The notes beneath the pieces were generated by a model. It saw nothing but the letters and a program-made list of their open reading frames with translations. It was not told where the DNA came from and ran no database searches. 60,270 nucleotides of DNA from UHGV virus genome UHGV-0335561, one strand, 5' to 3'. The stretch comes from a virus. Positions 44,487 through 51,288 of the stretch are shown here, in pieces; within the stretch, counting starts at the first letter, position 1, and every line of letters begins with the position of its first letter. A program made the position numbers and the translations under genes.

Positions 44487-46238
44487 ATGATTCAGGACGC
44501 TTTTGTGCGCCAGCGTGCGCGGCAACTTTACTGGCAGGGTTATCCGCCCGCAGAAATATCACGTCTGATGGGAATAAACCCGAACACGATTTATGCGTGG
44601 AAAAAACGTGACCAGTGGGATGAAACGCCACCCGTGCAGCGTGTCACGCAGTCCATCGATGCGCGCCTCATCCAGCTTACTGAAAAACAGAATAAAACAG
44701 GCGGTGACTTTAAGGAAATAGACCTGCTGACCCGGCAGCTTAAAAAGCTGCATGATGGCCAGCCGGATGTGATGGCCGCAGGAAAGAAAGGCCGGGCGAA
44801 AAAACTCAAAAATCATTTCACGCCGGAACAGATTGCCGCACTGCGGGAAAAAATCATCAGCAGGCTGGAGTGGCATCAGCGGGGCTGGTTTGACTCCCTG
44901 ACCCTTTGCAGGGAAGCCGGGATACGTAACAGGATGATCCTGAAATCCCGACAGATTGGGGCGACCTGGTATTTTGCACAGGAAGCACTGCTGATGGCGC
45001 TGCGTGACGATGTGGCGCAACCTTACCAGCGTAACCAGATTTTTTTGTCTGCGTCGCGTCGTCAGGCGTTCCAGTTTAAAAGCATTATTCAGAAGGCCGC
45101 GGCTGAAGTTGATGTGGAGCTGAAAGGGGGCGATAAAATCATCCTCTCCAACGGCGCAGAGCTGCATTTTCTCGGCACTTCTGCTGCGTCGGCACAGTCC
45201 TATACGGGCAATTTTTATTTTGATGAATTTTTCTGGGTCAGTCGCTTTGCTGAACTGCGCAAGGTGGCTGGCGCTATGGCAACCCTCAGCGGACTGCGGC
45301 GCACCTACTTCTCCACGCCATCCACCGAAACGCACGAGGCATACGCCTACTGGAACGGCGACCGCTGGAACGAGAAAAAGGCCTCGCATAAACGCCAGCG
45401 TTTTTCTGTGGACTGGAAAACGCTGCATAATGGGCTTATCTGCCCTGACCGGACGTGGCGGCAAATTGTCACGCTGGAAGATGTGGTTAATCACGGCTGG
45501 AAACACACCGATATCGACGAAATTCGTGATGAAAACACCGAAGACGAGTTCCTCAATCTCTATATGTGTGAGTTTGTCCGCGAAGGGGAATCGGCATTTA
45601 ACCTGAATATCCTGATTGGCTGCGGTGTTGACGGATACGACGACTGGAAAGACTGGAAACCTTTTGCTCCCCGCCCGATGGGGAATCGTCCGGTATGGAT
45701 TGGGTATGACGCAAACGGCAGTAGTGGCAACGGCGACAGCGGCGCTGTGTCCGTGGTGGTTCCTCCGGCTGTTCCTGGCGGCCGTTTTCGAACGGTGGAG
45801 ACGCGACGCGTTCAGGGGCTGGAGTTTGAAGAACAGGCCAGAGTCATTGAAGAGTTCACGTGTCGCTACAACGTGGAACACATCGGCATTGATGTGACGG
45901 GCGGGAACGGGGAGGCTGTTTATCAGATAGTGAAGCGGTTTTTCCCTGCTGCTATTCCGTACACCTTCACGCTGTCATCAAAACGGTCGCTGGTACTGAA
46001 AATGCTGCAAATAATGCGTGCCGGGCGGTGGGAATACGATCGCGCCGAACGCGAGCTGGTCGCGGCCTTTAACGCCGTGCGTAAGGTGAAAACACCGGGC
46101 GGCTTTATCACTTACGAAACGGACCGCGCGAGGGGGATCAGCCACGGCGACCTTGCGTGGGCAACCATGCTTGCTGTCATTAACGAACCAATTGGCGGCG
46201 AAGGAGAAAACGAGCGTTTCATGGTTATGGAGTTCTGA
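44487..46238 (+). CDS. P: terminase ATPase (large) subunit (P2 gpP family)
   Basis: 583 aa; Walker A-like KSRQIGAT. Confidence 0.88.
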   Translation: MIQDAFVRQRARQLYWQGYPPAEISRLMGINPNTIYAWKKRDQWDETPPVQRVTQSIDARLIQLTEKQNKTGGDFKEIDLLTRQLKKLHDGQPDVMAAGKKGRAKKLKNHFTPEQIAALREKIISRLEWHQRGWFDSLTLCREAGIRNRMILKSRQIGATWYFAQEALLMALRDDVAQPYQRNQIFLSASRRQAFQFKSIIQKAAAEVDVELKGGDKIILSNGAELHFLGTSAASAQSYTGNFYFDEFFWVSRFAELRKVAGAMATLSGLRRTYFSTPSTETHEAYAYWNGDRWNEKKASHKRQRFSVDWKTLHNGLICPDRTWRQIVTLEDVVNHGWKHTDIDEIRDENTEDEFLNLYMCEFVREGESAFNLNILIGCGVDGYDDWKDWKPFAPRPMGNRPVWIGYDANGSSGNGDSGAVSVVVPPAVPGGRFRTVETRRVQGLEFEEQARVIEEFTCRYNVEHIGIDVTGGNGEAVYQIVKRFFPAAIPYTFTLSSKRSLVLKMLQIMRAGRWEYDRAERELVAAFNAVRKVKTPGGFITYETDRARGISHGDLAWATMLAVINEPIGGEGENERFMVMEF

Positions 46239-47284
46239 TGAGCAGAAAAAATAAAAAAGTGCGCATGAGTTCACGCATTGATCTCGCTGATGCGCTCAGG
46301 AAAGAATCATCGCTCAGTGCATTCACATTTGATGGTCCTTATCGCCTGACCGGGCATGACCTGCTGGACAATATGTACTGTGCTGATAACGGGCGGTGGT
46401 ATGAAACCCCGGTGGACTGGTACGGTCTGGCAAGAGCAGCCCGGCAAACGTCCTGGCATCAGTCTGCGCTTTACTTTAAGCGCAATGTATTACTCGGTTG
46501 CTACATCCCGCACCCGCTGCTTTCCCGGCAGGATTTCTCGGCGCTGGCGCTGGACTGGTTTGTGTTCGGTAACGCATTCCTTGAGCTTCGAAGCAATATG
46601 CTCGGCGAACCGCTTAAATTACGGCACGCCCTGGCGAAATACATGCGACGCGGAAGCGATCTTGAATCATGGTGGTATGTGCAGGATGGCAAGGACGCGT
46701 TTCAGTTTCGTCCTGGCAAAGTGTGCCACCTGATGAATCCGGATATTAACCAGGAAATCTACGGCATGCCGGAATATCTTGGCGCATTACTCTCGGCCAG
46801 CCTTTCTCATTCGGCGGACATGTTCAGAAAACTGTACTACGACAACGGATCCCACGCCGGGTGCATCATCTACATCGGTGCAGCGCAGGTAAACCGCGAA
46901 AGCATGGACTCCCTGAAAGAAACGCTACAGGGGGCACGTGGTGGTGGTGCGTTTAAAAACGTGCTCATTCATGCGCCCAACGGGGGCAAAGAGGGGGTGC
47001 AAATTTTGCCGTTCCAGCAGATCACCGCAAAAGATGAATTCATGAATGTTAAGGCGGCATCCCGTGATGATGTGCTGGCTGCGCACCGCGTTCCGCCGCA
47101 ACTGATGGGGGCGATGCCGGGCGAAAAAAGTGCGTTTGGCGATGTGGAGAAGGCAGCGCGGGTTTACGCAATTAACGAGCTGATGCCCGTTATGGAGGCT
47201 ATGAAGCACATCAATGACTGGCTTGGCGAAGAGGTGATCCGTTTTAACTCTTATGCTCTTCTTGATGAAAAAACAGCCCCGTGA
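46238..47284 (+). CDS. Q: portal protein (P2 gpQ family)
   Basis: 348 aa; start overlaps P stop. Confidence 0.85.
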   Translation: MSRKNKKVRMSSRIDLADALRKESSLSAFTFDGPYRLTGHDLLDNMYCADNGRWYETPVDWYGLARAARQTSWHQSALYFKRNVLLGCYIPHPLLSRQDFSALALDWFVFGNAFLELRSNMLGEPLKLRHALAKYMRRGSDLESWWYVQDGKDAFQFRPGKVCHLMNPDINQEIYGMPEYLGALLSASLSHSADMFRKLYYDNGSHAGCIIYIGAAQVNRESMDSLKETLQGARGGGAFKNVLIHAPNGGKEGVQILPFQQITAKDEFMNVKAASRDDVLAAHRVPPQLMGAMPGEKSAFGDVEKAARVYAINELMPVMEAMKHINDWLGEEVIRFNSYALLDEKTAP

Positions 47285-47300
47285 TGGGGCTGTCCTTTTT
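47268..47300. terminator. bidirectional terminator between convergent Q and the 174-aa gene
   Basis: acagccccgtgatggggctgt hairpin with T run after and A run before. Confidence 0.65.
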
Positions 47301-47823
47301 ACCAGAGTTGAACCATTTTCTGGGTGCCGTCAGGCTTGAGATTATCAATTTCAGAGAGAACGTAATATTGAATGGCTTCACAAACGGTGGTGTAGGGTGA
47401 ATTACCTTCTTTAAGTGGCACGATATTATTATTAACGCGAACCTGTATTTCATCGTTATACATTGCGATCGAAACAGGAGTGTGCACGAACGCGACTTCG
47501 CCAGGTGTGTCGTCAACCACCGTTTCAATACTAAAAGTCAGTTTTCGCTCATCATTGCTGCCCCGTGCTTTGGGGGTAGCGGCAGGGATCTGGGATAAAG
47601 GCATTCTGCGAAATCCTTCGGCTGCTTCCAGTCCGCATGAAACGTAATGCTGGCGATTACCGTCGCTATCTGTCCAGGTCTGTGATGGCAGCTCCAGCGA
47701 GATTTCATAAGCATCAACAATGCCCTGGGCAAGGCGTACAAGCGGGGTCAGATCTTCATTGCGGCGAAAGCTCTCCTTTACCTGCTCCCGTTTTTCTCTT
47801 AACTGCTTGTAATTAATGACCAT
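47299..47823 (-). CDS. hypothetical 174-aa protein at the cos-proximal edge of the cargo locus
   Basis: GGAGG RBS 7 nt upstream of ATG (MVINYKQLREKREQVKESF...); own terminator; no TM; no family recognised. Confidence 0.6.
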   Translation of the reverse strand: MVINYKQLREKREQVKESFRRNEDLTPLVRLAQGIVDAYEISLELPSQTWTDSDGNRQHYVSCGLEAAEGFRRMPLSQIPAATPKARGSNDERKLTFSIETVVDDTPGEVAFVHTPVSIAMYNDEIQVRVNNNIVPLKEGNSPYTTVCEAIQYYVLSEIDNLKPDGTQKMVQLW

Positions 47824-48368
47824 AAGACAGCCTCCATTGATTTCTTTGCTCGTATTTTGCACTTATGAAGTATGGTCGGCAAGGTGCCGTATCGCTGACG
47901 CGCTTCGCTTGTCTGCTGCTTCGCCGGGGCATAAAAAATTTATGCCCCGGCTCTCCAGCTCCTGTATCAATCAGATAATTTCACGACGCCTTCCAGTTTA
48001 TCGCCACCATCGACGGTCAGACTCTTACGCAATTCCACCGCGTTGACTGCATGTTCTCGCTGCCTCAGTGCGATTTTGACGGCCTTACCTTTCACCCCAT
48101 CAAATCAAAAGCCCTCACGCCTTTTTCATGCTCAGCGTGAGAAATATGGCCATTCTGTTGTGTCTCTGCGACATCGTTCAGGGAATGCTATTTACCCCCT
48201 GAAACGCGGGCTGTTCCCCCGTCACCTGCGCGCAGAAAAAGCGCGTTTTTTTGTGCACGCACGGATCCTTGACGGATCCAGCCGCCATGCGGGCCGGAAG
48301 GGTAAAAAGTCGTTCAAAAAAATTGTGCAAATTTGTGCACTTTTGTGCAGGTAAGCATGCCTATATAT

Positions 48369-48397
48369 TTGACCGTGGCTTGCCTTTGATGTAGTTT
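48369..48397 (+). promoter_or_regulatory. putative sigma70 promoter (TTGACC, 17 bp, TAGTTT) preceded by three TTGTGCA repeats at 10-bp spacing
   Basis: aattgtgcaaatttgtgcacttttgtgcag upstream of the -35/-10 pair. Confidence 0.35.
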
Positions 48398-48449
48398 ATA
48401 CGTCACAAAAACCACAAAACGTGGTTATGATTTCTATGAGGGGGTTGAT

Positions 48450-48485
48450 ATGAAAAAAATGTATGATGAATTTGATGGTTTCTAA
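48450..48485 (+). other. leader mini-ORF (11 codons, MKKMYDEFDGF) with strong RBS, just upstream of a terminator
   Basis: GAGGGGG RBS 5 nt upstream of ATG; stop about 20 nt before the hairpin. Confidence 0.35.
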
Positions 48486-48503
48486 GCTACGTTGACCTCT
48501 AAT

Positions 48504-48534
48504 GAGGCGGGGATTTGCTCCCCGCCTTTTTTAT
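48504..48534 (+). terminator. rho-independent terminator/attenuator 13 bp upstream of the first cassette gene
   Basis: gaggcgggga-tttgc-tccccgcc followed by tttttt. Confidence 0.7.
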
Positions 48535-48546
48535 GGATGAAATAGG

Positions 48547-49044
48547 ATGAACCCAATAACACTACAAATCATCAGCAATGCTATTGTTCTGCTTGGCGTT
48601 TTGGTTGCCATTGGAACCATTATCTACAATGTGCGTACCGCAAAAAAAACTCAAACGGCCAACTTTCTTTTTGAGAGTCGGCAAGATATGCAATATATAG
48701 AGTCATTGCATACCCTGAAACAAGTGCATCGTTCAGGCAAATCATTTCGTTCTTATGTTTTTCCTTGTGATGGTTGCATAATAACAGATGAAGAAATGGC
48801 CGAGCGTCGAAAATTTCAATATATTTTAAATTTTTACGAGCGAGTTGCTGTAAGTATTCGTGAAGGTATTTATGATGAAAAAATGATAAAAAGAACATCT
48901 TACACAACAGTTGTAGAGACATATGATATTGCCGAGCCATTAATTAAAGCAATCAGAGAAAGCATTAATTCGGATACTACATATCAAGAATTCGAATGGT
49001 TAGTAAGAAGATGGAAAGCTAATCCTTTACGGAAAAACAAATAA
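48547..49044 (+). CDS. hypothetical membrane-anchored protein (single N-terminal TM plus about 135-aa soluble domain), AT-rich
   Basis: 165 aa MNPITLQIISNAIVLLGVLVAIGTIIYNV...; visibly lower GC than flanks. Confidence 0.7.
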   Translation: MNPITLQIISNAIVLLGVLVAIGTIIYNVRTAKKTQTANFLFESRQDMQYIESLHTLKQVHRSGKSFRSYVFPCDGCIITDEEMAERRKFQYILNFYERVAVSIREGIYDEKMIKRTSYTTVVETYDIAEPLIKAIRESINSDTTYQEFEWLVRRWKANPLRKNK

Positions 49045-49083
49045 TGTTTTACCCTTTAATTTACAAGTAACACAGGGGGAAGT

Positions 49084-49926
49084 GTGACACAGAATCCGTT
49101 TTCATTTTATGACTTTTTGGGCTATCTAATTCCAGGTGGGTTATTCCTGTTTATCCTTTTTTTGTTTTCTATTGAAATTAACCCTGTTTATATAGAAGGT
49201 ATTCTTAACCATATCCTGAAATATAAAGAAATAATAAGTGTATTTATATATGTGGTATTAATCGTTCTATCATATATTTCAGGTCACTTCATATCTATTC
49301 TATCATCCTGTTTAATTGAAAAATACATGAACAGTAAACTTGGGTATCCTTCAATTTATCTGTTTTCTAAAAGAAGCTCCCTGAAAATAAAACGACATAA
49401 TACTAAGTTCAGTATAGTTAATTTTATTCGTGGAGTTTTTTTATTTCCTGTATCAGCTTTTGATAAAGCAGAACATCATAAAACCACACTGCATTCTATA
49501 CTTATTAAAGTCTTTTGGCCGCAAATACGAGATGGTTATATAAATGTTTTTTCTGTATCTACGCTATATCGACGTAAGGGCTTGAGGGGCGATCTTTTTC
49601 GCCTTGCTTATCATTATGTGTATGAACATTCTAAAAATCATCAGGTGAAAATGCAAAACTATGTTGCTTTGTATGGTTTTTGTAGAAACATTACATTTGT
49701 TTTTCTCGCTTCAGTCTGGTTGCTTATGTTCCTGCTCCTTCTATCCTTTTTAATAGATATAAATATCAGACTGTTACCTTTTTGTTTTCTTCTCTTGTTT
49801 TGTATTGCTGCATCCCGAGTATTTTATTATGGTTTTGTTAAGTATTATCGCCGCTATTCTCTTGAGGTTTTAATGGCATTTGCGGTACTTCAGCACGATA
49901 AAAAAACTTCGGCAATTTCATCATGA
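49084..49926 (+). CDS. hypothetical polytopic membrane protein (4-5 predicted TM helices), AT-rich
   Basis: 280 aa; hydrophobic segments at about 10-30, 50-72, 196-222, 224-250; purine-rich RBS region. Confidence 0.7.
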   Translation: MTQNPFSFYDFLGYLIPGGLFLFILFLFSIEINPVYIEGILNHILKYKEIISVFIYVVLIVLSYISGHFISILSSCLIEKYMNSKLGYPSIYLFSKRSSLKIKRHNTKFSIVNFIRGVFLFPVSAFDKAEHHKTTLHSILIKVFWPQIRDGYINVFSVSTLYRRKGLRGDLFRLAYHYVYEHSKNHQVKMQNYVALYGFCRNITFVFLASVWLLMFLLLLSFLIDINIRLLPFCFLLLFCIAASRVFYYGFVKYYRRYSLEVLMAFAVLQHDKKTSAISS

Positions 49927-50009: not shown

Positions 50010-50324
50010 TTATTCTGGGAATAAGGTCTGAATATTCTTTTTTATTTTATAAAAATTGCATTCAACTCCGCTAGGCTGATTATCCTGGTATGTTTCCTTG
50101 ATGCTAACGGTATTGAAGGGGAGGTTGTCCTCTGGCCATTCGGCCATCCAGTAGGCAAATGCTGGGTTGCGCTTTATGAGCGCTAGCCCAGCCAGAAAGG
50201 CCGCGCGTTGCGCGCGGCTGCGTTCGGAGGCTGGCAGGCTATCGAGGTAATTGCACGCCTCCTGTTCACTCTTGACGGCGGCGGGCTTCAGATAGAAACT
50301 TATCCGTCTGGTTGGTGTCGTCAT
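50010..50324 (-). CDS. parR: ParR-like centromere-binding protein (type II partition, ribbon-helix-helix)
   Basis: 104 aa; RRISFYLKPAAVKSEQEACNYLDSLPASERSRAQRAAFLAGLALIKRNP resembles plasmid R1 ParR as I recall it; AAGGAG RBS. Confidence 0.75.
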   Translation of the reverse strand: MTTPTRRISFYLKPAAVKSEQEACNYLDSLPASERSRAQRAAFLAGLALIKRNPAFAYWMAEWPEDNLPFNTVSIKETYQDNQPSGVECNFYKIKKNIQTLFPE

Positions 50325-50328
50325 TGGT

Positions 50329-51288
50329 TTACTCCTTGTCCATTGCGTACAGCCCATTAACCAGAGCAAACTGTGGCACCCCGTCCGCGATGAAAGTCGC
50401 ATTAACTCCGCAGACTTCGCGGATAGCGGGTGCCACAATCTCCGCCCCTCCACCGACAACCATCACCCGCCCGTAACCCGAAAAAACCGCCAGCGCGCGG
50501 ATCACGCGTTGTTTCAGTGTTTCTTCCTTTTCACGAATAACCGCCATCAGGCTGGCGTAATGCGCGTCATTGTGGATGTGCTGGCGCAGCCAGGCTTCAT
50601 CATGGCGATGTTCGATAATGGTATTGGCGATGTGGTGACTGGTGCGCATACCGTTAGTGGCCATCACCGACAGTACGGCATCGGCCATCAGGGAAACGCC
50701 TACGTGTGGATCGCAAAACACCTGGCTGATACCTGCCAGTTGCCCTTGAACCTTTGCCACATCCAGCGTGGTTCCGCCTAAATCCACAATCAGCAGGGAT
50801 TCAAACGGACTCATGTCAGCCAGTGCTTTAAAGCCAGCCGGAATGGATTCAGGCATAACCCGCACGTTACGGATAGTGAATGCTTCGCCGTTCTGGTATT
50901 CCACCGGGCGCATAACGTTCGCTTTTTTGCGGTTGATGTTGGCCATGTCCGGCTGTGCGTTTGTGTCGAAATACTCGCTCAGTGGCAGGGTGACAACCAC
51001 ATCCACCTCCTGTGGCGTGATGCCTGATTTGACCAGCGCGTGATGAATGGCGATTACATTCACATCGCTGTACTGGTATTGCGTGTCGGTCGTCTGGACA
51101 AAGCGATCGCTAACCGGATCAAAACCATAGCGCACGCCATCAAGCATGTAGTTCGCGGGCTGCATGCCACCGAACGGCGCAGACCATTCCGACTTGAAGC
51201 TGTTCGGGCTGATGGCGTTGCGGCGTTCGCCATTCTCAGTCCATGCCAGCTTGATGTTGGTGGAGCCGTCGTCGATACAAATTTTCAT
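50329..51288 (-). CDS. parM: ParM/StbA-family actin-like segregation ATPase
   Basis: 319 aa; MKICIDDGSTNIKLAW...ISPNSFK.EW...YSDVNVIAIHHAL... motifs of R1 ParM. Confidence 0.85.
   Translation of the reverse strand: MKICIDDGSTNIKLAWTENGERRNAISPNSFKSEWSAPFGGMQPANYMLDGVRYGFDPVSDRFVQTTDTQYQYSDVNVIAIHHALVKSGITPQEVDVVVTLPLSEYFDTNAQPDMANINRKKANVMRPVEYQNGEAFTIRNVRVMPESIPAGFKALADMSPFESLLIVDLGGTTLDVAKVQGQLAGISQVFCDPHVGVSLMADAVLSVMATNGMRTSHHIANTIIEHRHDEAWLRQHIHNDAHYASLMAVIREKEETLKQRVIRALAVFSGYGRVMVVGGGAEIVAPAIREVCGVNATFIADGVPQFALVNGLYAMDKE

What the first reader, a model, noticed from the sequence alone, without database searches (positions are those of the whole stretch)
47299..47862. Orphan 174-aa gene in the 'old' position next to the portal gene
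A standalone minus-strand gene with a good RBS and its own bidirectional terminator sits convergent to Q at the cos-proximal edge of the cargo locus. It is soluble, has normal GC and matches nothing I recognise. Single-gene defence or anti-defence proteins are common at exactly this position.
Basis: partly seen in the sequence, partly recalled or inferred. Interest (0 to 1): 0.5.

Follow-up and report, generated by a model that had tools for sequence, protein, structure and literature searches.

The report
Unknown-function moron gene beside prophage portal
A real, well-conserved 174-residue accessory gene of unknown function was inserted between the portal gene and the DNA-packaging site of a P2-family (P88-like) E. 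coli prophage; it belongs to an unstudied temperate-phage protein family and is an untested candidate for a role in phage-phage or phage-host conflict.

Summary
The gene is real. The CDS runs 47823..47299 (minus strand), starts at ATG, has a GGAGG RBS 7 nt upstream and encodes 174 aa. It shares a bidirectional hairpin terminator (47273-47293) with the convergent portal gene Q.

- **Accessory status:** it lies on a ~650-bp module that P88, P88_4B11 and Citrobacter phiSM lack. It is present in 397 of 5426 complete E. coli genomes, about 31% of P88-type loci, and always in this context.
- **Selection:** dN/dS among E. coli alleles is 0.07-0.12.
- **Position:** it is not strictly in the P2 old/tin position. 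It lies on the Q side of the conserved packaging (cos) block, which is the slot holding the ctx toxin gene in Pseudomonas phage phiCTX. The AT-rich DUF4760 + 4TM pair across cos occupies the old/tin-like slot.
- **Family:** it is not a true orphan. It belongs to PHROG 5091 (unknown function), with 89 clusters found only in Enterobacterales so far. Members sit as single-gene cassettes with their own terminators in classic moron slots of unrelated temperate phages.
- **Known matches:** no Pfam, NCBIfam or PADLOC hit and no convincing structural relative.

The function is unknown and apparently untested. My best guess, at low confidence, is a small soluble non-enzymatic binding protein expressed from the prophage that excludes other phages. 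A counter-defence inhibitor is the main rival.

The parts
47299..47823 (-). CDS, 174 aa + stop (WP_000236495.1); PHROG 5091 member, function unknown
   Evidence: Translation; RefSeq annotation; PHROG hit E 1.4e-67 over residues 1-168; dN/dS 0.07-0.12; AF2 model pLDDT 80, pTM 0.73
47831..47835 (-). Shine-Dalgarno GGAGG, 7 nt before the ATG
   Evidence: Sequence read; GGAG conserved in the E. coli, Salmonella-type and Trabulsiella homologues
47854..47882 (-). Candidate sigma-70 promoter TTGCCG-17 nt-CAAAAT (8 of 12 matches), inside the inserted module
   Evidence: Below the scan threshold. Both hexamers and the 17-nt spacing recur as TTGTCT-17-CAAAAT upstream of the 60%-identical Salmonella-type homologue, while the spacer has diverged. 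Inferred, not shown.
47273..47293 (.). Bidirectional hairpin terminator shared by the gene and portal gene Q; Q's stop codon lies in the loop
   Evidence: Terminator scan, + strand; T-run on the minus strand read directly; same architecture with a different stem sequence in L008
47240..47894 (.). Inserted module relative to P88-type phages that lack the gene: new 3' end of Q (C-tail NSYALLDEKTAP instead of NPYALLDTQPTS), hairpin, gene, RBS, candidate promoter
   Evidence: Alignment with P88, P88_4B11 and phiSM. Homology is lost after GGCGAAGAGGTGATCCG and resumes at CTGAC (47895); blastn places query position 646 at 47895
47895..48349 (.). Conserved non-coding block that abuts Q directly in gene-less relatives. 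It contains the ancestral Q-distal palindrome (47923-47951), the putative cos cleavage point (~48304/48305) and three phased TTGTGCA repeats (48323-48349)
   Evidence: 93-95% identical in P88, 520873, Chuche, phiSM and others. The linear record LR595891 begins and ends at the point equivalent to 48304/48305. The block is in 1142 E. coli genomes. The exact cos site is not established; there is no match to P2 or phiCTX cos
46238..47284 (+). Portal gene Q (context), allele WP_000087814.1, which always accompanies the 174-aa gene in the genomes inspected
   Evidence: Pfam Phage_portal; the same portal accession in five genomes carrying three different alleles of the 174-aa protein

Best explanation
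Anatomy (high confidence, ~0.9). This is a moron, a self-contained accessory cassette made of a weak sigma-70-like promoter, an RBS, a 174-aa ORF and a bidirectional terminator. It was recombined into the interval between portal gene Q and the cos packaging block of a P88-like (Xuanwuvirus, Peduoviridae) prophage, and it brought a foreign 3' end for Q with it. The protein belongs to PHROG 5091, an uncharacterised family seen so far only in Enterobacterales temperate phages.

Mechanism (inferred, low confidence). The cassette is transcribed from its own promoter independently of the P2-type early and late operons, so it would be made in the lysogen. The product is a small, acidic, soluble alpha+beta protein: an N-terminal helical hairpin, an antiparallel sheet and a C-terminal helix. 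It has no catalytic or membrane features. I propose that it acts stoichiometrically, binding a protein of a superinfecting phage or a host factor that phage needs, and so excludes competitors. This would be functionally like P2 Tin, without homology to it. The confidence value below is for this functional reading.
For: - **Presence/absence in collinear relatives:** the cos block abuts Q directly in P88, P88_4B11 and phiSM. The gene is in 397 E. coli genomes and the block in 1142.
- **Always one context in E. coli:** the same 397 genomes cover at least 80% of the Q-gene-cos query.
- **Own signals:** RBS and terminator; promoter hexamers conserved against a diverged spacer in the Salmonella-type homologue. 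Homologues in other phages also carry a strong terminator just after the stop codon.
- **Composition:** GC and GC3 are lower than the backbone.
- **Functional protein:** dN/dS 0.07-0.12, conserved motifs across 61-73 members and a confident fold.
- **Independence from neighbouring cargo:**, with 12 cargo-side sequence clusters among 37 loci. There is no conserved partner gene in about 11 different contexts, so it works as a single gene.
- **Location:** those contexts are classic moron slots, often next to toxin-antitoxin genes. The gpA-gpQ interval is a documented defence hotspot (PMC9122126). The cosL-Q slot holds a lysogenic-conversion gene with its own promoter and terminators in phiCTX.
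- **No enzyme, membrane or signal features:**
Against: - There is no direct evidence for any phenotype.
- No PADLOC model matches any of 61 members convincingly, and no literature mentions the protein.
- The promoter is weak (8 of 12) and unverified.
- In lambdoid and myovirus relatives the gene is co-oriented with late operons, and in Trabulsiella it sits 94 bp after gpA. That would also fit expression during lytic growth and a counter-defence role.
- Small acidic non-enzymatic proteins are more typical of inhibitors than of defence effectors.
- Low dN/dS is not what one expects of a rapidly evolving arms-race interface.
Confidence: 0.35

Rival explanations
1. Counter-defence or host-takeover inhibitor. 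The protein binds and neutralises a host or rival-prophage immunity component, or another host protein, and so helps the phage during infection or induction.
For: It is small, acidic, soluble and non-enzymatic. In the lambdoid and myovirus relatives sampled it is co-directional with late genes: between antiterminator Q and holin, or inside baseplate operons. In Trabulsiella it lies directly downstream of gpA in the early operon. It has spread across unrelated temperate phage types, as anti-defence genes do. There is weak fold resemblance to inhibitor and immunity proteins.
Confidence: 0.25
2. Another lysogenic-conversion or fitness function unrelated to phages, for example an orphan immunity protein against a bacterial toxin, or a modulator of a host pathway.
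For: It has moron anatomy and sits in the same slot as the phiCTX toxin gene. It is common in ExPEC ST131 and in EHEC/EPEC genomes. There is weak resemblance to the T6SS/Rhs immunity proteins Imm52 and TriTu.
Against: It has no signal peptide or secretion signal. No toxin partner or consistent neighbour was found. The family is confined to prophage contexts and is essentially absent from plasmids (2 records).
Confidence: 0.2
3. Phage morphogenesis or packaging accessory that works with the portal or cos, such as a portal-associated or head-completion helper.
For: It is tightly linked to one portal allele whose C-terminal residues came with the module. It lies next to the cos block. Relatives lie in late regions of other phages.
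Against: It is absent from about 70% of phages with near-identical P, Q and cos block, including the viable phages P88, P88_4B11 and phiSM. It is convergent to, not part of, the P-Q late operon. It is separated by its own terminators in other phages. It sits at different, unrelated positions in different phage types, with no homology to virion proteins. The portal linkage is explained by physical adjacency.
Confidence: 0.07
4. Non-functional hitch-hiking ORF.
For: No known domain; small size.
Against: dN/dS is 0.07-0.12 at dS 0.08-0.20. It is full-length in all 397 E. coli genomes. The family has conserved motifs at 21-33% identity and a confident predicted fold.
Confidence: 0.03

Closest known systems
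ctx cassette of Pseudomonas phage phiCTX (cosL-ctx-terminators-Q)
   Same: Same slot and layout in a P2-family genome. A single accessory gene lies between cosL and the portal gene, reads toward and converges on Q, and has its own promoter and terminators. The cosL-Q interval has been proposed as a pick-up site for foreign genes (PMC5694545).
   Different: No sequence relationship (hhalign probability 0.2%). Ctx is a secreted pore-forming toxin, whereas this protein is cytoplasmic and has no known activity. The cos position here is inferred, not mapped.
P2 tin/old (TO region) lysogenic-conversion genes
   Same: Non-essential cargo within the gpA-gpQ interval, next to cos, that excludes other phages. 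Tin is a soluble single protein, a possible functional analogue.
   Different: tin and old lie on the other side of cos (right arm) and are transcribed away from cos. In this window that slot is taken by the DUF4760 + 4TM pair. There is no homology to Tin (hhalign probability 0.4%) and no ATPase or nuclease domain like Old.
PHROG 5091 (unknown function)
   Same: Full-length match at E 1.4e-67. All 61 sampled relatives match this PHROG and no other.
   Different: The family has no annotation, so membership says nothing about function.
Morons of lambdoid phages (Hendrix/Juhala sense, e.g. the stx, bor and lom slots)
   Same: A promoter-gene-terminator cassette, present or absent between close relatives, with offset base composition. 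Relatives occupy the antiterminator-Q-to-holin slot and the lysis-to-terminase slot.
   Different: Expression from the prophage has not been shown here, and the promoter is only a weak consensus match.

Membership tests
Phage moron (autonomous accessory cassette) | Present or absent between otherwise collinear close relatives | tested here: met
   Absent in P88, P88_4B11, phiSM and 520873, where the cos block abuts Q; gene in 397 E. coli genomes versus cos block in 1142
Phage moron (autonomous accessory cassette) | Own terminator | tested here: met
   Bidirectional hairpin 47273-47293; terminators directly after homologues in L011, L014 and L017
Phage moron (autonomous accessory cassette) | Own promoter, transcribed from the prophage | tested here: inconclusive
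   TTGCCG-17-CAAAAT is only 8 of 12 and below the scan threshold. The hexamers and spacing are conserved in the Salmonella-type homologue against a diverged spacer. No expression data.
Phage moron (autonomous accessory cassette) | Base composition differs from the flanking phage genes | tested here: met
   GC 47.4% and GC3 47% versus backbone 53% and portal GC3 59%; a modest offset
P2 old/tin (TO-region) cargo | Lies between gpA and cosR on the right arm | tested here: not met
   The gene is on the Q side of the only conserved non-coding block between Q and the variable cargo. The LR595891 ends map to 48304/48305, beyond the gene. Compare the P2 map. The exact cos site is inferred.
Rousset et al. 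2022 P2 hotspot (operational: genes between gpA and gpQ) | Encoded between gpA and gpQ of a P2-like prophage | tested here: met
   WP_000236495 is listed 167 times in the stored part of Table S5A as 'hypothetical'. It was not among the cloned or tested systems found in Table S2.
Known anti-phage defence systems (PADLOC-DB 2.0.0) | Significant match to a defence-protein HMM | tested here: not met
   0 hits for the protein. Among 61 relatives there were only two single chance-level hits, E 0.005-0.009.
Conserved P2-family packaging or head accessory gene | Present in all relatives; homologous to a virion or packaging protein | tested here: not met
   Absent from P2, phiCTX, P88 and phiSM. Only 5 of 50,697 phage records hold a family member. 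No structural-protein PHROG or Pfam hit.
186 Tum / DinI-type SOS antirepressor at the cos-proximal end | LexA box upstream; DinI-like domain | tested here: not met
   No CTGT-N8-ACAG match upstream of the gene; no Pfam hit
PHROG 5091 | Full-length HMM match | tested here: met
   E 1.4e-67, residues 1-168 on profile positions 1-164 of 164; 61 of 61 relatives match

The most novel reading that the evidence does not exclude
PHROG 5091 is a new single-protein, non-enzymatic anti-phage (or counter-defence) family with a fold unlike any solved structure. It would be spread as a promoter-gene-terminator cassette among P2-like, lambdoid and other temperate phages of Enterobacterales, and carried by about 7% of complete E. 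coli genomes, including ST131.
Probability: 0.4. Interest if true: 0.6.

Novelty: new member of a known kind. Interest (0 to 1): 0.4.

Why it matters
If the protein has a phage-exclusion or counter-defence activity, it would add a common single-gene system with no recognisable domain to the P2-family hotspot repertoire. About 7% of complete E. coli genomes carry it, including pandemic ST131 and several EHEC/EPEC lineages. Current tools (PADLOC, Pfam, NCBIfam) are blind to it. The work also shows that the gpA-gpQ "hotspot" of P88-like phages is really two slots separated by cos, which exchange cargo independently. That matters for guilt-by-association predictions. As it stands, this is an ordinary, well-behaved hypothetical moron gene and a reasonable cloning candidate, not a surprising object.

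Tried and rejected
- **Duplicated Q 3' end at the right junction:** MAFFT suggested that 47824-47900 is a decayed copy of the Q 3' end. Local alignment scored below the shuffle mean, so I rejected this.
- **P2/186 cos 19-mer and P2 or phiCTX cos-region similarity in the block:** no match with up to 3 mismatches, and local alignments are not above shuffles. The cos position therefore rests on conservation and on the ends of one linear record.
- **LexA box or Tum-like control:** none found upstream.
- **Rfam families in 47000-48700:** only a sub-threshold SorX hit at the DUF4760 leader hairpin.
- **Domain and sequence searches:** Pfam, NCBIfam and PADLOC on the protein and on 61 relatives gave nothing. 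A profile search against PDB sequences gave nothing below E 0.1.
- **Homology to Tin or Ctx:** none.
- **Other searches:** The search for related loci with the broad alignment failed because no conserved stretch was long enough. Literature searches by accession, PHROG id and peptide found no paper.

Full report
**1. What is there**

The mechanical ORF 47299..47862 (minus strand, GTG, 187 aa) contains a 174-aa CDS, 47823..47299. It starts at ATG, with GGAGG 7 nt upstream (47835-47831). RefSeq annotates exactly this CDS as WP_000236495.1, 'hypothetical protein', and all homologues begin M(V/T)(I/V)NY.

The gene converges on portal gene Q (46238..47284, Pfam Phage_portal), which follows terminase gene P (44487..46238). 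A hairpin, ACAGCCCCG-TGA-TGGGGCTGT (47273-47293), lies between the two genes. It has T-runs on both strands, and the Q stop codon sits in its loop.

The protein is 19.8 kDa with pI 5.0 and GRAVY -0.5. It has no hydrophobic segment and no signal-like N-terminus. GC is 47.4% (GC3 47%), against 53% for the prophage backbone and GC3 59% for Q.

**2. Context**

The surrounding element is a P88-like (Xuanwuvirus, Peduoviridae) prophage. Identical DNA occurs in many E. coli genomes, notably ST131, and in four induced or extracted phage records.

Reading rightward from the gene, the window holds:
- a non-coding stretch, 47863-48546;
- an AT-rich pair, DUF4760 (1 TM) plus a 280-aa 4-TM protein (48547-49926, plus strand, 33% GC);
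- StbB/ParR-like and ParM genes and the replication gene gpA, all on the minus strand.

**3. It is an insertion on the Q side of cos**

In P88, P88_4B11, 520873, Chuche and Citrobacter phiSM, window 47895-48349 is 93-95% identical and abuts the portal stop codon directly.

The four-way alignment shows where homology breaks. It is lost about 45 nt before the end of Q, after GGCGAAGAGGTGATCCG. The portal C-tail changes from NPYALLDTQPTS to NSYALLDEKTAP. Homology resumes at CTGAC (47895). The module of ~650 bp therefore carries a foreign Q 3' end, the hairpin, the gene, its RBS and ~70 bp of upstream sequence.

The 455-bp block is the only non-coding sequence between Q and the variable cargo that is shared by phages with near-identical terminases. 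It must therefore hold cos. The linear record of P88_4B11 (LR595891) begins and ends at the point equivalent to window 48304/48305. That point lies next to three TTGTGCA repeats spaced 10 bp apart (48323-48349).

The block shows no similarity to the P2 or phiCTX cos, so the exact cleavage site remains inferred.

On this reading the gene lies between cosL and Q. P2 old/tin lie on the other arm, between gpA and cosR, and are read away from cos. In this window the DUF4760 pair has that position and orientation. The closest architectural precedent is phiCTX: cosL, then ctx with its own promoter and two terminators, then a convergent Q. Askora et al. (PMC5694545), citing Dodd & Egan 1996 and Nakayama 1999, describe the cosL-Q interval as a site where P2-like phages pick up foreign genes.

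**4. Accessory, but maintained**

Among 5426 complete E. coli genomes:
- the gene is in 397 (401 places, all full length);
- the cos block is in 1142 (1308 places).

So roughly 31% of P88-type loci carry the gene. The same 397 genomes cover at least 80% of a query spanning the Q end, the gene and the cos block, so in E. coli the gene always has this context.

The cargo across cos varies independently. It can be DUF4760 + 4TM, ClpX-zinc-finger + hypothetical, other hypotheticals, or nothing annotated. Among 37 IMG/VR and window loci there are 12 cargo-side sequence clusters.

In the five genomes inspected, the portal accession is always WP_000087814.1, while three alleles of the 174-aa protein occur. 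Between alleles dS is 0.08-0.20 and dN/dS is 0.07-0.12, which indicates strong purifying selection.

A Salmonella-type P2-like phage (L008, 60% protein identity) has the same module. Its portal tail is NSYALLEENKTGL, and its portal stop codon again lies in the loop of a hairpin with a different stem sequence, 16 nt from the homologue's stop. The portal tail, hairpin and gene therefore move together as an old unit.

Upstream, both versions keep TTG(C/T)C(G/T)-17 nt-CAAAAT while the spacer differs. I take this as moderate evidence for an own, weak sigma-70 promoter at 47882-47854.

**5. The family**

- **Word-indexed search:** 19 clusters, from E. coli, Salmonella and Trabulsiella.
- **Species-representative genomes:** only Salmonella enterica and Trabulsiella guamensis carry close relatives.
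- **Exhaustive profile search:** 89 clusters at 50% identity with E below 1e-3, nearly all 155-180 aa. Those that carry names come from E. coli, Salmonella, Klebsiella, Serratia and Xenorhabdus, and all are 'hypothetical'.
- **PHROG:** all 61 sampled members match PHROG 5091 (unknown function) and nothing else.
- **Other libraries:** none matches Pfam, NCBIfam or PADLOC meaningfully.
- **Conserved motifs:** Y-x2-SLxLP-x3-W-x-D-x2-G-x4-YV, F-x-I-x-TV-x-DD-x-P, and VC-x2-I(K/Q) in the C-terminal helix.
- **Rarity:** only 5 of 50,697 phage records and 2 of 72,556 plasmid records contain a member.

**6. Contexts of relatives**

| Phage type | Position of the gene | Loci |
|---|---|---|
| P2-like | next to the portal gene | window, L008 |
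| P2-like | 94 bp after gpA | Trabulsiella L009 |
| Lambdoid | between antiterminator Q and holin | Serratia L014-L018, phage CharmingMan L023, Salmonella L026-L029, Klebsiella L030 |
| Lambdoid | between the lysis genes and terminase | E. coli L012 |
| Myovirus | inside or at the head of a baseplate operon | L011, L013 |

No partner gene recurs across these contexts. Neighbours are often other cargo, such as HicAB, YafO, Phd-Fic or an IS. A strong terminator follows the gene in L011, L014 and L017. This is the behaviour of a mobile single-gene moron.

**7. Structure**

AlphaFold2 gives a confident model (pLDDT 80, pTM 0.73). It has a helical hairpin (residues 5-42), an antiparallel sheet (49-135) and a C-terminal helix (145-159), with a disordered subfamily-specific loop at 83-89. 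A 73-sequence alignment gave the same fold.

These similarities show only a generic two-layer alpha+beta sandwich. They assign no function, and the fold has no close solved relative.

**8. Prior knowledge**

Rousset et al. 2022 list WP_000236495 as 'hypothetical' within gpA-gpQ loci (Table S5A). The adjacent DUF4760 + 4TM pair is their system #3 (1102 occurrences). Neither appears among the cloned systems in Table S2. No paper in the library mentions the protein, its alleles or PHROG 5091.

**9. Interpretation**

Shown:
- a real, selected, single-gene accessory cassette in the cosL-Q slot;
- membership of an uncharacterised temperate-phage family found so far only in Enterobacterales.

Inferred:
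- autonomous transcription from the prophage;
- action by protein binding rather than catalysis.

The role is most likely in phage-phage or phage-host conflict. I estimate:

| Reading | Probability |
|---|---|
| Lysogen-protective exclusion | ~0.35 |
| Counter-defence inhibitor | ~0.25 |
| Other conversion or immunity function | ~0.2 |
| Morphogenesis accessory | ~0.07 |
| Junk ORF | ~0.03 |

The 'old position' and 'orphan' labels both need correcting.

**10. Verdict**

This is a new member of a known kind: a moron in a known P2-family pick-up site and hotspot. It is moderately interesting as a cloning candidate and is not surprising in itself.

Noticed in passing
window 48402-48546 (+): Attenuator-like leader in front of the DUF4760 gene. 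It consists of a promoter-like site GTCACA-18-TATGAT (48402-48431), an 11-codon ORF MKKMYDEFDGF* (48450-48485) with a GAGGGGG RBS, and a terminator-like hairpin with a T-run (48504-48528) 18 nt before the DUF4760 start. Citrobacter phage phiSM has the same layout (MKKVFDEFDGF*, hairpin with changed but still complementary stem) in front of its membrane-protein gene.
   Followed up: partly
window 48547-49926 (+): An AT-rich pair (33% GC): DUF4760 (165 aa, 1 TM) plus a 280-aa 4-TM protein with a weak PADLOC Csx27 match (E 1e-5). It occupies the true P2 old/tin-equivalent slot, with a cos-proximal promoter reading toward gpA. It is system #3 (1102 occurrences) in Rousset et al. 2022 Table S5B, with no phenotype reported there.
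   Followed up: partly
window 48290-48349: A G+C-rich stretch where the ends of linear record LR595891 (P88_4B11) map (48304/48305), followed by three TTGTGCA repeats at 10-bp phase (48323-48349). These are candidates for the cos cleavage site and terminase-binding repeats of P88-type phages, and they are unlike the P2/186 cos.
   Followed up: partly
window 47923-47951: A 13-bp-stem perfect palindrome, GCCGGGGCATAAA-AAA-TTTATGCCCCGGC, without a T-run. In gene-less P88-type phages it lies just after the portal stop codon, so it is presumably the ancestral Q-distal hairpin. It now sits upstream of the moron's candidate promoter.
   Followed up: no
window 47967-48095 (-): A 42-aa ORF inside the conserved cos block, annotated as a hypothetical protein in several phage records. 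It is unclear whether it is a real gene or a by-product of the conserved packaging sequence.
   Followed up: no
L008 6534-6560 and window 47273-47293: In both the E. coli and the Salmonella-type P2-like phages, the portal stop codon lies in the loop of the hairpin shared with the convergent PHROG 5091 gene. The stems differ in sequence but stay complementary.
   Followed up: yes
L033 (NZ_OX637964.1) and two other genomes, equivalent to the window interval between the 174-aa gene and DUF4760 (insertion point not mapped): An IS421 (IS4-like) copy lies between the 174-aa gene and the DUF4760 gene in three genomes, including an ST131 isolate. The 174-aa gene itself is intact.
   Followed up: partly
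window 50010-51288 (-): StbB/ParR-like and ParM plasmid-partition genes lie directly downstream of gpA. Rousset et al. note this pair in about a quarter of P2-like phages and suggest it might allow maintenance as a plasmid.
   Followed up: no
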